This document shows positions 1,218 through 5,849 of a DNA stretch of 5,849 nucleotides, piece after piece; positions within the stretch are counted from its first letter, which is position 1; every line of letters begins with the position of its first letter. This stretch comes from a virus. Taxonomy: Duplodnaviria; Heunggongvirae; Uroviricota; Caudoviricetes. The position numbers and the translations under genes were made by a program. The DNA lies in IMG/VR virus record IMGVR_UViG_2711768015_000003, one strand, 5' to 3'. The notes under the pieces were generated by a model, which did not search any database, was not told the origin of the DNA, and saw only the letters and a list, made by a program, of their open reading frames with translations.

Positions 1218-1467
1218 NNNNNNNNNNNNNNNNNNNNNNNNNNNNNNNNNNNNNNNNNNNNNNNNNNNNNNNNNNNNNNNNNNNNNNNNNNNNNNNNNNN
1301 NNNNNNNNNNNNNNNNNNNNNNNNNNNNNNNNNNNNNNNNNNNNNNNNNNNNNNNNNNNNNNNNNNNNNNNNNNNNNNNNNNNNNNNNNNNNNNNNNNNN
1401 NNNNNNNNNNNNNNNNNNNNNNNNNNNNNNNNNNNNNNNNNNNNNNNNNNNNNNNNNNNNNNNNNNN
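1218..1467. other. 250-nt run of N (assembly gap or masked sequence)
   Basis: Directly visible as n characters. It removes the endolysin C-terminus, the Rz N-terminus and the Rz1 start. Confidence 1.
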
Positions 1468-1686: not shown

Positions 1687-2037
1687 ATGCCATCACTAAT
1701 CCCACGTGCCTGCCGTAAGCGTGGATGTGCAGGTACAACCACAGACAGTTCGGGTTACTGCGATAAACATCGCGGTGAAGGCTGGGTGCAGCACCAGCGC
1801 GGACTGAGCCGCCACCAGCGTGGCTATGGCTCAAAATGGACGGTGATTCGTGCCCGTATTCTGAAGCGCGATAAAGGTCTGTGTCAGTTGTGTCTGCGTG
1901 TCGGTGTGGTGAGCGAGGCGAAAACCGTCGACCACATCATCCCGAAAGCGCATGGCGGAACAGACGCAGACAGCAACCTGCAGAGTCTGTGCTGGCCCTG
2001 CCATAAAGCGAAAACAGCGCGCGAACGAATCCGGTGA
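1687..2037 (+). CDS. HNH endonuclease, terminase-associated (HK97 gp74-like)
   Basis: 116-aa ORF with an RBS (gagg, 1677-1680) 6 nt before the ATG. It has Cys pairs (CRKRGC, CQLC, CWPCH) and an HNH core (VDHIIPKAHGGTDADSNLQSLCWPCH). It lies immediately upstream of terS, as is typical of HK97-like cos phages, and ends in a double stop (TGA TAA). Confidence 0.9.
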   Translation: MPSLIPRACRKRGCAGTTTDSSGYCDKHRGEGWVQHQRGLSRHQRGYGSKWTVIRARILKRDKGLCQLCLRVGVVSEAKTVDHIIPKAHGGTDADSNLQSLCWPCHKAKTARERIR

Positions 2038-2158: not shown

Positions 2159-2653
2159 ATGGCTGGAACGGCGGGGCGTTCCGGGCGTCGCCCCAAGCCA
2201 ACGGCGCGCAAGGCGCTGGCCGGAAACCCCGGCAAGCGAGCCCTGAACAAAGATGAACCTGTTTTTACGCCCATCAAAGGTGTTGAGCCACCAGAGTGGT
2301 TCGCTGAAGAAGATCTCCCTCTCGCCACGATCATGTGGCAACTGACAACCAAAGAACTCTGCGGTCAGGGCCTGCTGTGCGTGACTGACCTGGCGGTACT
2401 TGAGCGGTGGTGCGTGGCCTATGAGTTCTGGCGACGTGCCGTGAAAAATATTGCCATACAGGGCAACACCATCACCGGTGCAATGGGCGGCAGGGTCAAA
2501 AATCCGGAGCTGACCGCCAAAAAAGAACAGGAGTCCGAGATGAGCAGCACGGGGGCAATGCTCGGACTCGACCCCAGCAGCCGCCAGCGTCTGATTGGCC
2601 TGGCGGGGCAGAAGAAAGCCACTAACCCGTTTCTGAAAATTATCGAATCATGA
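2159..2653 (+). CDS. terS: Terminase small subunit (P27-family-like)
   Basis: ORF with AGGAG (2145-2149) 9 nt before ATG 2159. The ORF track starts at GTG 2150, which overlaps the RBS, so I prefer 2159. The product is basic at the N-terminus ([41 protein letters not shown]...), as expected of phage small terminases of the P27 type. Its stop TGA (2651-2653) overlaps the terL ATG (2650) as ATGA. Confidence 0.85.
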
Positions 2654-4383
2654 GCCGGAAATCTTACCCCAACGTAAATGCTGCAAATCAGTATGCCCGG
2701 GATGTCGTGCGCGGAAAGATTGTTGCCTGCCAGTTTGTGATTCAGGCCTGCCAGCGCCATCTTGATGACCTGATGGCGGAAAAAAGTAAGTCGTTTCGTT
2801 ACCGCTTCGACAAGGACCTGGCTGAACGGGCCGCGAAATTTATTCAGCTGTTGCCGCACACCAAGGGGGAGTGGGCATTCAAACGGATGCCCATCACGCT
2901 GGAGCCGTGGCAGCTATTTGTGATCTGCTGTGCGTTTGGCTGGGTCAATAAAGGCACCCGGTTGCGCCGCTTCCGGGAGGTGTACACCGAAATCCCCCGT
3001 AAGAACGGCAAATCAGCAATCTCTGCCGGTGTTGCCCTGTATTGTTTTGCCTGTGATAACGAGTTTGGCGCGGAAGTGTATTCCGGTGCCACGACAGAGA
3101 AACAGGCGTGGGAAGTCTTTCGCCCGGCGCGACTGATGTGTAAACGCACACCCATGCTGACGGAAGCGTTCGGGATTGAGGTTAACGCCTCAAACATGAA
3201 CCGTCCGGAGGATGGCGCGCGGTTTGAACCGCTGATCGGCAACCCAGGTGATGGTTCATCACCCCACTGTGCCGTGGTTGATGAATATCACGAGCATGCC
3301 ACCGATGCGCTTTATACCACAATGCTTACCGGGATGGGGGCGCGACGTCAGCCACTGATGTGGGCCATCACCACCGCCGGGTACAACATTGAGGGGCCGT
3401 GCTACGACAAGCGGCGGGAAGTCATCGAGATGCTCAACGGCTCGGTGCCTAACGATGAACTGTTCGGGATCATCTATACCGTTGATGAAGGTGACGACTG
3501 GACCGGCCCGCAGGTGCTGGAAAAAGCCAATCCAAATATTGGCGTGTCGGTTTATCGCGAATTTTTGTTAAGTCAGCAGCAGCGTGCGAAAAATAACGCC
3601 CGTCTGGCAAACGTCTTTAAAACAAAACACCTCAATATCTGGGTGTCGGCGCGTTCGGCGTATTTCAACTTGGTGAGCTGGCAGAGCTGCGAGGATAAAT
3701 CACTGACCCTTGAGCAGTTCGAGGGGCAGCCGTGCATTCTGGCCTTTGACCTGGCGCGTAAGCTGGATATGAACAGCATGGCGCGACTTTATACCCGCGA
3801 GATTGACGGTAAAACGCATTACTACAGTGTGGCCCCGCGTTTCTGGGTACCGTATGACACGGTGTACAGCGTCGAGAAAAATGAAGATCGACGGACAGCC
3901 GAACGCTTTCAGAAATGGGTGGAAATGGGCGTTCTGACCGTTACCGATGGTGCGGAGGTGGATTATCGCTACATCCTCGAGGAGGCCAAAGCGGCGAACA
4001 AAATCAGCCCGGTCAGTGAGTCACCCATCGACCCCTTCGGGGCGACCGGGTTGTCACATGACCTTGCTGATGAAGACCTGAATCCCGTCACTATCGTCCA
4101 GAACTTCACCAATATGTCCGATCCGATGAAAGAGCTGGAAGCAGCGATTGAATCGGGACGTTTTCATCATGACGGCAATCCCATCATGACCTGGTGTATC
4201 GGCAACGTGGTCGGCAAAAACATGCCGGGTAACGATGATGTGGTGAAACCCGTCAAAGAGCAGGCGGAAAACAAAATCGATGGTGCAGTTGCGCTGATTA
4301 TGGCGGTTGGCAGAGCCATGCTGTACGAGAAAGAAGACACGCTGTCTGACCACATTGAGTCCTACGGGATCCGCTCGCTTTAA
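2650..4383 (+). CDS. terL: Terminase large subunit (ATPase plus nuclease)
   Basis: 577-aa ORF with a Walker A-like P-loop ([14 protein letters not shown]), a Walker B-like motif ([10 protein letters not shown]) and a C-terminal acidic nuclease-type region (DPFGATG ... [12 protein letters not shown]). The size and order are typical of a large terminase. It is translationally coupled to terS. Confidence 0.95.
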
Positions 4384-4394
4384 CTGAGGTAATT

Positions 4395-4577
4395 ATGATC
4401 ATGCTGATTCTCGCGCCTCTGGTGGGCGTGCTGGGTGCGCTTTTGCTGGCGTATGGTGCCTGGCTGATTTATCCCCCGGCGGGTTTTGTTGTTGCCGGGG
4501 CGCTGTGCCTGTTCTGGTCGTGGCTGGTGGCGCGATATCTCGACCGTACACGGCAGTCTGTCGGCGGAGGTAAATAG
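4395..4577 (+). CDS. Hypothetical small membrane protein (60 aa, two predicted TM helices)
   Basis: [63 protein letters not shown] has two hydrophobic segments separated by YPP and a basic C-terminus. gaggt (4386-4390) lies 4 nt before the ATG. It exactly fills the terL-portal spacer, and its stop TAG (4575-4577) overlaps the candidate portal GTG (4577). I recognise no family. Confidence 0.5.
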
Positions 4578-5733
4578 TGTTCTTTTCGGGATTATTTCAA
4601 CGAAAAAGCGATGTGCCGGTGACCACGCCAGCAGAACTGCTGATGCTATCGGGCTGTCATACGACACCTATACCGGAAAGCGGATCAGTAGCCAGCGGGC
4701 CATGCGCCTGACGGCGGTCTATTCTTGCGTCAGGGTGCTGGCAGAGTCTGTTGGTATGCTGCCCTGCAGTCTCTACAAAATCAGCGGTACCCTGAAAACA
4801 CGGGCGGTGGATGAACGACTGCATAAGTTGGTTTCGGCAAAACCTAATGGCTACATGACACCGCAGGAATTCTGGGAGCTGGTTATTGTCTGCCTGTGTC
4901 TACGGGGGAATTTTTACGCCTACAAGGTAAAGGCACTGGGAGAAGTGGTGGAGCTTCTTCCGATAGATCCGGGCTGTGTGGAACCGAAGCTGAACAGCCA
5001 GTGGCAGCCGGTTTATCAGGTGACGTTTCCGGATGGTTCCGTGGATGTGTTGACCCAGAATGAAATCTGGCATGTGCGCACCCTGACGCTGGATGGACTT
5101 GTCGGGCTGAATCCCATTGCGTATGCGCGTGAGGCCATTTCACTGGCAGCGGCAACCGAGGAGCACGGTGCCAGGTTGTTTAGTAATGGTGCGGTGACAT
5201 CCGGTGTGTTGCGTACGGAACAAAAGCTCACGCCGGATGCTTACGAGCGTCTGAAGAAAGATTTTGAGGAGTGTCACACGGGGCTTGGCAATGCTCACCG
5301 CCCGATGATTCTGGAAATGGGGCTGGACTGGAAGTCGATGGCGCTGAACGCCGAGGACAGTCAGTTCCTGGAAACCCGCAAGTTTCAGCTGGAAGAAATC
5401 TGTCGTCTGTTCCGGGTGCCGTTGCACATGGTGCAGAACACCGATCGCGCCACCTTCAACAATATCGAAGAGCTGGGGCTGGGATTTATCAACTATTCAC
5501 TGGTGCCGTATCTGACCCGCATCGAACAGCGGATCAACACCGGACTGGTACGAAAAAGTAAGCAGGGCGTTTATTACGCCAAATTTAACGCCGGGGCGTT
5601 ACTGCGCGGGGATATGAAGTCCCGTTTTGAAGCCTACGCCACCGGGATCAACTGGGGAATTTACTCTTCCAATGACTGCCGCGACCTGGAAGATATGAAT
5701 CCGCGTCCCGGTGGTGTAATGCCGATCAGTTAA
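4577..5733 (+). CDS. Portal protein (HK97-family-like); the N-terminal 26 codons are in a different frame from the main body (apparent 1-nt frameshift near 4651-4653)
   Basis: The main ORF (frame 1) runs to TAA 5731-5733 and looks portal-like in size, position after terL, and sequence (AMRLTAVYSCVRVLAESVGMLPCSLY...). The ORF track starts it at TTG 4486 inside the upstream gene, with no RBS and an implausible extension. In frame 2, GTG 4577 sits 6 nt after GGAGG (4566-4570) and reads MFFSGLFQRKSDVPVTTPAELLMLSG..., which looks like a genuine N-terminus, before stopping at 4709-4711. Adding one G to the GGG run at 4651-4653 would join the two frames as ...AELLMLSGLSYDTYTGKRISSQRAMRLTAVYSC... Confidence 0.8.
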
Positions 5734-5765
5734 GGATCAGTTGACCGATCCAGTGGCTGTGTAAG

Positions 5766-5800
5766 AATCCGGAAACGCTCACTTGTTTCCGGATTTTTTT
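5766..5800 (+). terminator. Intrinsic (rho-independent) terminator downstream of the portal gene
   Basis: Perfect 11-bp inverted repeat aatccggaaac (5766-5776) / gtttccggatt (5785-5795) with an 8-nt loop, running into a T-run that ends at 5800. Terminator geometry exists only on the + strand. Confidence 0.7.
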
Positions 5801-5849
5801 ATGCACATTGGACAGGCTCTTGATCTGGTATCCCGTTACGATTCTCTGC

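What the first reader, a model, noticed from the sequence alone, without database searches (positions are those of the whole stretch)
4395..4577. Uncharacterised 60-aa two-helix membrane protein inserted between terL and portal
HK97-like packaging modules normally run terS-terL-portal with no gene in between. Here a short ORF with two predicted TM helices and a basic tail is translationally coupled on both sides (RBS after the terL stop; its stop overlaps the candidate portal GTG). A small membrane protein co-expressed with the packaging genes is not explained by known terminase or portal function. It could be a moron (for example superinfection exclusion or a membrane-acting factor) or a packaging accessory. 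This is the best candidate for something undescribed in the window, though it may simply be a conserved ORF of unknown function.
Basis: partly seen in the sequence, partly recalled or inferred. Interest (0 to 1): 0.5.

Follow-up and report, generated by a model that had tools for sequence, protein, structure and literature searches.

The report
Portal-linked small phage membrane protein (YmfR)
The 60-codon ORF is a real gene, the already catalogued but never studied prophage gene ymfR; it encodes a two-helix inner-membrane protein whose gene sits directly in front of the portal gene throughout a large group of HK97-like phages, which suggests (but does not show) that it helps the portal act at the cell membrane.

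Summary
Window 4395-4577 is an intact 60-aa ORF with a GAGG ribosome-binding site after the terL stop, two hydrophobic helices, a basic tail and a stop that overlaps the portal GTG (TAGTG).

It is not undescribed. It is the orthologue of E. coli K-12 e14 YmfR (PHROG 502, 'membrane protein'), annotated in more than 1,100 E. coli genomes and in phages phiP27, ST64B, SfI and SfII. No function is known.

It is under purifying selection (dN/dS about 0.26). It belongs to a large family of about 60-aa hairpin proteins with the motif YGAWxxYxPAGFIVxG (402 representative clusters).

In 61 of 61 non-redundant distant loci the next gene is a PF04860 portal, usually with a 1-nt stop/start overlap. In every mosaic and every insertion examined, the small gene stays with the portal and not with terL. 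SfV carries an unannotated homologue. The HK97 clade has none.

The gene has no promoter or terminator of its own and no compositional anomaly, so it does not look like a moron.

Best reading (inferred, about 0.4): a late, portal-coupled membrane factor for portal or prohead assembly, analogous in role to T4 gp40.

The gene is already known; the portal linkage is a useful lead. In this window the portal itself is broken by a frameshift and an IS4 insertion.

The parts
2650..4383 (+). Large terminase subunit (terL), the upstream neighbour
   Evidence: 577 aa. Pfam TerL_ATPase 8e-26 and TerL_nuclease 4e-33. Stop TAA at 4381-4383.
4386..4389 (+). Shine-Dalgarno core (GAGG) for ymfR
   Evidence: Lies 5 nt before the ATG. 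An SD core is present before the small ORF in 36 of 42 unique family loci.
4395..4577 (+). ymfR-family CDS, 60 aa: [60 protein letters not shown]
   Evidence: PHROG 502 at E=2.8e-28. Annotated 'protein YmfR' in E. coli genomes. dN/dS 0.26.
4398..4469 (+). Transmembrane helix 1 (about residues 2-25), glycine-rich (G11, G14, G21)
   Evidence: Hydropathy. AF2 helix 2-25. G14 and G21 are nearly invariant across the wide family.
4455..4499 (+). Most conserved motif: [15 protein letters not shown] (residues 21-35), the predicted periplasmic turn
   Evidence: G35 is invariant and G21, W23, P28 and G30 are nearly invariant in 73 diverse members. The loop carries almost no K/R (0.15 on average) against 1.4 in the N-terminal and 1.2 in the C-terminal segment, which fits N-in/C-in topology.
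4482..4535 (+). Transmembrane helix 2 (about residues 30-47)
   Evidence: Hydropathy. AF2 helix 27-57.
4566..4570 (+). GGAGG: Shine-Dalgarno for the portal gene, embedded in the last codons of ymfR
   Evidence: An SD core lies at the equivalent place in 27 of 42 unique loci (G-rich in most others). This explains the invariant C-terminal Gly-Gly.
4575..4579 (+). TAGTG: ymfR stop overlapping the portal start by 1 nt
   Evidence: Junctions in 42 unique family loci: TGATG 25, TAATG 6, TAGTG 6, 4-nt overlaps 3.
4577..5697 (+). Portal gene (PF04860 type), disrupted here by a 1-nt deletion near 4639 and cut by IS4
   Evidence: Alignment with SfII, phiP27 and an E. coli copy. ORF list. The intact SfII portal scores Phage_portal 2.7e-107.
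5698..5849 (.). End of an IS4 element inserted in the portal gene
   Evidence: 96-97% identity to IS4 copies in E. coli genomes, starting at query position 44-49 of 5650-5849.

Best explanation
**Shown.**
- The ORF is a real protein-coding gene of the YmfR family.
- The product is a roughly 60-aa helical hairpin predicted to sit in the inner membrane with both ends in the cytoplasm and a conserved YxPAG turn facing the periplasm.
- It has no transcription signals of its own. It lies in the late operon, starts 11 nt after the terL stop, and its stop overlaps the portal start.
- Across a wide family it is always the gene immediately upstream of an HK97-type (PF04860) portal and is inherited together with that portal.

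**Inferred.** The protein is made together with the portal protein late in infection. It acts with the portal at the cytoplasmic face of the inner membrane, most likely as a small membrane tether or chaperone. Such a factor would concentrate portal subunits on the membrane and favour formation of one dodecameric ring as the starting point of a prohead. This is the role the membrane-associated chaperone gp40 plays for the T4 portal. The glycine-rich helices and the naturally duplicated four-helix versions suggest that it works as a dimer or higher oligomer.
For: **Coding and conserved.**
- 93/93 copies are intact, with dN/dS 0.26.
- The SfV-type homologue is intact in 80/80 loci, with pN/pS 0.33.

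**Family.**
- 402 representative clusters at E<=1e-3. Of the 148 listed, 134 are 80 aa or shorter and share the YGAWxxYxPAG motif.

**Synteny.**
- In distant IMG/VR loci the downstream gene is Phage_portal in 61/61 cases, at 19-99% identity to the SfII portal.
- The upstream gene is a terminase large subunit in 40/40 cases, including one of a different family, Terminase_3.
- The stop/start overlap with the portal is 1 nt in 37 and 4 nt in 3 of 42 unique loci.

**Co-inheritance (values are % identity for terL / small ORF / portal).**
- SfV against SfII: 97 / 28 / 29.
- L133 and L169 against the rest: 37 / 53-70 / 77-87.
- L138 against L145: 28 / 96 / 99.

**Insertions.** A methyltransferase, a NUMOD3 homing endonuclease and unknown ORFs lie between terL and the small ORF. 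None lies between the small ORF and the portal.

**Not moron-like.**
- No promoter or terminator.
- GC3 equals that of the neighbours.
- Induced with the other e14 genes under SOS-inducing conditions (PMC10012262).

**Precedent.**
- T4 portal assembly on the inner membrane depends on the phage chaperone gp40 (PMC9958956, PMC4493910).
- SPP1 prohead precursors form at the membrane in a portal-dependent way, and the mechanism is stated to be unknown (PMC13212656).

**Oligomer hint.** Tandem-duplicated 4-TM members P0157, P0189, P0197 and P0201.
Against: - There is no direct evidence of any contact with the portal. The link is purely genetic.
- The HK97 clade has a PF04860 portal and no such gene (78/78 loci), so the function is not generally required.
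- The best-conserved part is the predicted periplasmic turn, not the cytoplasmic tails that could touch a cytoplasmic portal.
- No membrane step has been described for HK97-like heads.
- No portal fusions were seen in the 80 distant loci.
- There is no sequence similarity to T4 gp40.
- Tight operon architecture, with the portal SD inside the small ORF, could by itself keep the two genes together.
Confidence: 0.4

Rival explanations
1. A membrane-acting accessory protein whose function has nothing to do with the portal, such as exclusion of superinfecting DNA, interference with a host inner-membrane protein, or another host-takeover role. It stays next to the portal only because the two genes share translation signals.
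For: - PHROG 502 is filed under 'moron, auxiliary metabolic gene and host takeover'.
- Small phage membrane proteins such as HK97 gp15 and T4 Imm act this way (established knowledge).
- The most conserved segment is the periplasm-facing turn, which would fit a conserved host membrane target.
- The HK97 clade does without it.
- The portal SD lies inside the small ORF.
Against: - It has no promoter or terminator of its own.
- Its composition matches its neighbours, whereas HK97 gp15 has GC 0.33 against 0.51-0.54.
- It has no PADLOC hit.
- It has no similarity to gp15 or Imm.
- Its presence is uniform within portal clades rather than sporadic.
- It follows the portal in all three mosaics, although the terL junction is just as tight, at -7 to +13 nt.
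Confidence: 0.25
2. A holin-like or antiholin-like protein that tunes the timing of lysis.
For: - It is small, with two transmembrane helices, a predicted N-in/C-in topology and a short basic C-terminus, like class II holins.
- Its helices are glycine-rich.
Against: - The window already holds a complete S21-type lysis cassette: a 71-aa holin at 635-850 followed by endolysin and Rz-like ORFs.
- It has no Pfam or PHROG holin similarity.
- It is linked to the portal and not to an endolysin in 61/61 loci.
- The Met1/Met3 pair is not conserved; other members begin MIL, MFL or MLL.
Confidence: 0.08
3. No protein function. The ORF serves only as a translated spacer that delivers ribosomes to the portal start, or it is a chance ORF.
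For: - The stop/start overlap is conserved.
- Deleting ymfR in K-12 has no phenotype (PMC9145139). This says little, because e14 is defective.
Against: - dN/dS is 0.26 and 0.33.
- A residue-level motif is conserved in 402 clusters at 30-50% identity.
- Length is constant and all 173 examined copies are intact.
- The portal has its own SD.
Confidence: 0.03
4. A lambda gpW-type head-tail joining (adaptor) protein, as several GenBank phage records label it.
For: - It occupies the same position as lambda W, between terL and the portal.
- It is labelled 'head-tail joining protein W' in vB_EcoM-689R6, -720R4, -606R7 and Salmonella phage As1.
Against: - BLASTP finds no alignment with lambda W.
- Lambda W matches PHROG 75 and YmfR does not.
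- YmfR is strongly hydrophobic (GRAVY 1.16), whereas gpW is a soluble protein (established knowledge).
Confidence: 0.01

Closest known systems
YmfR of the E. coli K-12 e14 prophage (b1150); PHROG 502 'membrane protein'; Sb3 of ST64B; 'putative integral membrane protein' of phiP27 and SfII
   Same: - Orthologous: the DNA is about 91% identical over terL 3' end, ymfR and portal 5' end.
- Same 60-aa length and same position.
   Different: Nothing essential differs. The family has a name but no experimental characterisation.
PHROG 7105 ('unknown function'): the unannotated 53-aa ORF of phage SfV (NC_003444, 2289-2450)
   Same: - A two-helix hairpin with a basic tail, lying between terL and a PF04860 portal.
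- Reciprocal weak profile hits: the SfV ORF against PHROG 502 at 5.7e-6, YmfR against PHROG 7105 at 0.022, and the A2 HMM at 1e-7 to 4e-5.
   Different: - Only about 28% identical.
- It lacks the YGAW/PPAG signature.
- Its ATG overlaps the terL stop.
- It goes with a portal only about 29% identical.
T4 gp40, the membrane-associated head vertex assembly chaperone
   Same: Proposed role only: a small phage-encoded membrane-associated factor that lets the portal assemble on the inner membrane (PMC9958956, PMC4493910).
   Different: - No sequence similarity.
- gp40 is 114 aa, largely hydrophilic and encoded far from the portal gene.
- No experiment links YmfR to a portal.
HK97 gp15, a moron-encoded inner-membrane protein that blocks DNA entry
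   Same: A roughly 60-aa membrane protein encoded inside a late structural operon.
   Different: - gp15 has one hydrophobic helix and GC 0.33 against 0.51-0.54 in its neighbours.
- gp15 has its own intergenic spacer and terminator.
- No similarity.
- YmfR shows none of the moron hallmarks.
Lambda gpW (head-tail adaptor Ad1, PHROG 75)
   Same: Gene position between terL and the portal, and similar length (68 aa).
   Different: Unrelated sequence. gpW is soluble rather than membrane-embedded.
Class II holins and pinholins (for example S21)
   Same: Size, two transmembrane helices and a predicted N-in/C-in topology.
   Different: - No sequence similarity.
- It is not in the lysis cassette, and an S21-type holin is present separately at 635-850.

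Membership tests
YmfR / PHROG 502 | Significant profile match over the full length | tested here: met
   PHROG 502 at E=2.8e-28, residues 1-55 of 60. 88-97% identity to database YmfR proteins.
YmfR / PHROG 502 | Two-helix hairpin with the G..YGAW..Y.PAG..G signature | tested here: met
   Alignments A1 and A2. AF2 helices 2-25 and 27-57.
YmfR / PHROG 502 | Located immediately upstream of a PF04860 portal gene, overlapping its start | tested here: met
   TAGTG junction in the window. 61/61 distant loci. Junction statistics.
Moron (independent accessory transcription unit in a late operon) | Own promoter and/or terminator flanking the gene | tested here: not met
   No + strand promoter-like or terminator-like site within 3900-5000 flanks the ORF. 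The gaps are 11 nt and -1 nt.
Moron (independent accessory transcription unit in a late operon) | Nucleotide composition different from neighbouring genes | tested here: not met
   GC 0.61 and GC3 0.67, against GC3 0.647 for terL and 0.642 for the portal. The positive control HK97 gp15 has GC 0.33 against 0.51-0.54.
Moron (independent accessory transcription unit in a late operon) | Sporadic presence among otherwise closely related phages | tested here: not met
   Present in all loci of the YmfR-type and SfV-type portal clades and absent from all loci of the HK97 clade.
Lambda gpW head-tail adaptor (PHROG 75) | Sequence or profile similarity to gpW | tested here: not met
   No BLASTP alignment at E<=100. 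No PHROG 75 hit.
Class II holin / pinholin | Similarity to a holin family and a position next to an endolysin | tested here: not met
   No holin family in Pfam or PHROGs. The lysis cassette lies 3.5 kb upstream.
Class II holin / pinholin | Membrane permeabilisation at a programmed time | not testable with these tools
   Needs expression and lysis assays.
T4 gp40-type portal assembly chaperone | Sequence similarity to gp40 | tested here: not met
   hhalign probability 0.3%.
T4 gp40-type portal assembly chaperone | Required for membrane-associated assembly of the portal ring | not testable with these tools
   Genetic linkage only. Needs mutant phage and localisation experiments.
Superinfection-exclusion or defence proteins | Match to a known defence or exclusion family | tested here: not met
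   No PADLOC hit. No similarity to T4 Imm or HK97 gp15.

The most novel reading that the evidence does not exclude
The YmfR family, together with the SfV-type PHROG 7105 proteins, is a previously unrecognised dedicated membrane partner of HK97-type portals. It would tether or chaperone newly made portal subunits at the inner membrane, so that a single dodecamer nucleates each prohead. That would be the missing molecular link for membrane-associated prohead initiation in a large clade of temperate phages of Proteobacteria.
Probability: 0.3. Interest if true: 0.75.

Novelty: already known. Interest (0 to 1): 0.4.

Why it matters
How a capsid acquires exactly one portal, and why portals and prohead precursors are found at the cell membrane in some phages, are open questions. 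The 2026 SPP1 cryo-tomography study states that the mechanism of membrane association is unknown (PMC13212656).

A small membrane protein whose gene is coupled to the portal gene across hundreds of sequence clusters is a concrete candidate. It is genetically easy to test in lab phages that are already in hand (ST64B, SfII, SfV, phiP27).

In practical terms, the work also corrects annotation:
- 'head-tail joining protein W' labels on YmfR homologues are wrong;
- SfV and similar records miss the gene and place the portal start too early.

If the protein turns out to be unrelated to the portal, it is still one of the most widespread uncharacterised small membrane proteins of enterobacterial prophages, present in roughly a fifth to a third of complete E. 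coli genomes.

Tried and rejected
- **Family libraries.** Pfam and NCBIfam gave only sub-threshold hits to unrelated membrane families. PADLOC gave nothing.
- **Structures.** A PDB profile search gave only a chance hit at E=0.22. A BFVD fold search gave nothing at E<=0.001, which is expected for a generic helical hairpin.
- **Literature.** ymfR appears in 13 papers, only in gene lists, deletion intervals, an expression table, an overexpression screen it did not pass, and as a neutral integration site. Searches for a described small membrane protein next to a portal found nothing relevant.
- **Relatedness to known proteins.** Lambda gpW, T4 gp40, T4 Imm and HK97 gp15 all tested negative.
- **SPP1 genes 3-5**, which lie between terL and the portal, are hydrophilic and so are not analogues.
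- **The terminator annotated in SfII** inside the 5' end of the gene has no counterpart in the window scan. I treat it as a prediction artefact.
- **Searches that could not run or said little.** A wide alignment (A2) was too diverse to seed a locus scan, so a narrower one (A3) was used. tblastn with the 60-aa protein found only close relatives, because the low-complexity filter masks helix 1. Taxonomy of the distant members could not be established, as most are unnamed metagenome proteins; one cluster is from Marinobacter.
- **Ribosome stalling at Pro-Pro.** The idea that the PP in YPPAG matters was dropped, because the first Pro is replaced by Q, K, E, R, A or H in many members.

Full report
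**Setting.** The window is the late region of an enterobacterial prophage (terL domains). It contains, in order:
- an S21-like holin (635-850);
- an endolysin/Rz region with a 250-nt run of N (1218-1467);
- an HNH endonuclease (1687-2037);
- terS (2150-2653);
- terL (2650-4383);
- the 60-codon ORF (4395-4577);
- a portal gene.

**The observation.**
- The ORF, its GAGG ribosome-binding site 5 nt before the ATG, and the TAGTG stop/start overlap are all present as described.
- Hydropathy and AlphaFold2 both give a two-helix hairpin (helices 2-25 and 27-57, pLDDT 73.5). The C-terminal tail is basic.
- One correction is needed: the portal in this window is a pseudogene.
  - A 1-nt deletion near 4639, shared with IMG/VR contig L019, breaks the GTG frame after 44 codons.
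  - An IS4 end replaces the gene from about 5693-5698.

**Identity.**
- The stretch 4100-4900 is about 91% identical to phiP27, ST64B, SfI, SfII and SfIV. It matches 1,604 of 5,426 complete E. coli genomes, 1,162 of them over at least 80% of the query. There the ORF is annotated 'ymfR: protein YmfR', the e14 prophage gene of K-12.
- It matches PHROG 502 ('membrane protein', E=2.8e-28). It reaches no Pfam or NCBIfam model.
- In the literature library ymfR occurs only in these contexts:
  - gene lists;
  - e14 deletion intervals;
  - a table showing it is induced together with other e14 genes (PMC10012262);
  - an overexpression screen that it did not pass;
  - use as a neutral integration site.
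- The gene is therefore known and named, but has no assigned function.

**Is it a real gene?**
- All 93 copies recovered from genomes and viral contigs are intact. All start with ATG, and 92 are 183 nt long.
- Median pairwise dN/dS is 0.26, and variation is highest at third codon positions. Copies from Mangrovibacter, Scandinavium and Citrobacter keep 60-65% amino-acid identity at dS above 1.
- A profile search of 1.84 billion representative proteins finds 402 clusters at E<=0.001. Of the 148 listed, 134 are 80 aa or shorter. They share G-x6-G-x-W-x3-x-P-x-G-x4-G, typically [17 protein letters not shown].
- Lys and Arg are concentrated at both ends and almost absent from the turn. This places both termini in the cytoplasm and the conserved turn at the periplasmic face.
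- Four members are tandem duplications with four helices, which suggests that the working unit is at least a dimer.

**Context: the main result.**
- From 80 distant IMG/VR loci carrying the motif I took the flanking ORFs.
  - All 61 non-redundant downstream proteins are Phage_portal (PF04860), at 19-99% identity to the SfII portal.
  - All 40 upstream proteins are large terminases, one of them from a different family, Terminase_3.
- The small ORF's stop overlaps the portal start by 1 nt in 37 of 42 unique loci (TGATG, TAATG or TAGTG) and by 4 nt in 3. The portal's Shine-Dalgarno sequence lies in the small ORF's last codons, which explains the 'invariant' C-terminal Gly-Gly.
- Where terL and the portal have different histories, the small ORF always follows the portal (% identity for terL / small ORF / portal):
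  - SfV against SfII: 97 / 28 / 29;
  - L133 and L169 against the rest: 37 / 53-70 / 77-87;
  - L138 against L145: 28 / 96 / 99.
- Where extra genes are present, they sit between terL and the small ORF and never between the small ORF and the portal. Examples are a methyltransferase on the opposite strand, a NUMOD3 homing endonuclease and ORFs of unknown function.
- Phage SfV looked at first like an exception. It carries an unannotated 53-aa two-helix ORF at the same place (NC_003444, 2289-2450).
  - This ORF belongs to PHROG 7105 and cross-hits PHROG 502 and my family HMM.
  - It is intact in 80 of 80 loci of that portal clade, with pN/pS 0.33.
- HK97 and 78 of 78 loci of its portal clade run terL straight into the portal and have no such ORF.

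**Against a moron.**
- No promoter-like or terminator-like site flanks the gene.
- GC and GC3 match the neighbouring genes.
- There is no PADLOC hit.
- The genuine late-operon moron HK97 gp15 serves as a positive control. It shows all the hallmarks that YmfR lacks: GC 0.33 against about 0.52, an intergenic spacer and its own terminator.

**Other families tested.**
- Lambda W occupies the same map position but is unrelated. The 'head-tail joining protein W' labels on YmfR homologues in several GenBank records are therefore positional errors.
- T4 gp40, T4 Imm and HK97 gp15 show no similarity.
- PDB and BFVD searches are uninformative.
- SPP1 genes 3-5, which lie between terL and the portal, are hydrophilic.

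**Mechanism.**
- Shown:
  - a late-operon, translationally coupled, conserved inner-membrane hairpin protein;
  - genetic linkage to PF04860 portals of two clades.
- Inferred: it acts with the portal at the membrane, most simply as a tether or chaperone that promotes formation of the portal ring and initiation of the prohead.
- Precedents:
  - T4, where the portal assembles on the inner membrane with the phage chaperone gp40 and with host YidC implicated (PMC9958956, PMC4493910);
  - SPP1, where open prohead precursors sit on the membrane only if the portal is made, and the authors call the mechanism unknown (PMC13212656).
- I put this at about 0.4.
- Weaknesses:
  - the HK97 clade lacks the gene;
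  - the most conserved part faces the periplasm;
  - there is no physical evidence;
  - shared translation signals could hold the genes together on their own.
- Rivals and their weights:
  - a portal-independent membrane effector, 0.25;
  - a holin-like timer, 0.08;
  - a mere translated spacer, 0.03;
  - a gpW-like adaptor, 0.01.

**Verdict.**
- The finding is a correct observation of an already catalogued, uncharacterised gene (YmfR). It is not a new element and not an insertion peculiar to this window.
- The follow-up adds three things:
  - the family-wide, exclusive coupling to the portal gene;
  - a hidden homologue in SfV;
  - a testable hypothesis that bears on an open question in capsid assembly.
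- Interest is 0.4. The most novel reading has a probability of about 0.3 and would deserve about 0.75 if true.

Noticed in passing
window 4577-4711 and about 4639: The portal gene has a 1-nt deletion relative to SfII, phiP27 and an E. coli copy (GAACT-GCTG against GAGCTGGCGG). The GTG frame therefore stops after 44 codons. IMG/VR contig L019 shares the lesion, so it is a lineage trait and not a read error in this window alone.
   Followed up: partly
window about 5693-5849: The 3' end of the portal gene is replaced by the end of an IS4 element (96-97% identical to IS4 copies in E. coli genomes). Together with the frameshift, this marks the prophage as defective.
   Followed up: partly
window 1218-1467: A run of 250 N masks the junction of the endolysin and Rz-like ORFs, so ORF 850-1644 in the ORF list is an artefactual fusion.
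   Followed up: no
L001 (phage SfV, NC_003444) 2289-2450: An unannotated 53-aa two-helix ORF (PHROG 7105) lies between terL and the portal. The RefSeq portal start (GTG 2392) lies inside it in another frame. A start at GTG 2440 fits better. The ORF is intact in 80 of 80 related viral contigs.
   Followed up: yes
GenBank ON470584, ON470603, ON470580, PQ793804: YmfR homologues are labelled 'head-tail joining protein W'. The label is positional. The protein is unrelated to lambda gpW.
   Followed up: yes
L160 2480-4210 (IMGVR_UViG_3300023211_000079): A 577-aa portal protein carries a C-terminal Acb1 (anti-CBASS phosphodiesterase) domain (PF23474, 3.4e-39). This is an anti-defence enzyme fused to a virion portal.
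   Followed up: no
OR844959.1 'Enterococcus phage Efm 3-10' (1,764 nt); L006 'MAG: Bacillota bacterium' contig JAEWTL010000102: Records attributed to Gram-positive hosts carry this E. coli-type terL-ymfR-portal DNA at 95-97% identity. Contamination or mis-binning is likely.
   Followed up: no
P0157, P0189, P0197, P0201: Members of the family occur as tandem duplications in one polypeptide (four predicted helices).
   Followed up: no
L116 2566-3441 (- strand); L150 2787-3278; L103 2864-3424: The gap between terL and the small ORF is a hotspot for inserted genes: a methyltransferase on the opposite strand, a NUMOD3 homing endonuclease and an unknown 187-aa ORF.
   Followed up: partly
window 1687-2037: An HNH endonuclease gene lies directly upstream of terS. 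This is the arrangement known from HK97-like cos phages, in which an HNH protein assists the terminase. It was identified from the ORF translation and from memory only.
   Followed up: no
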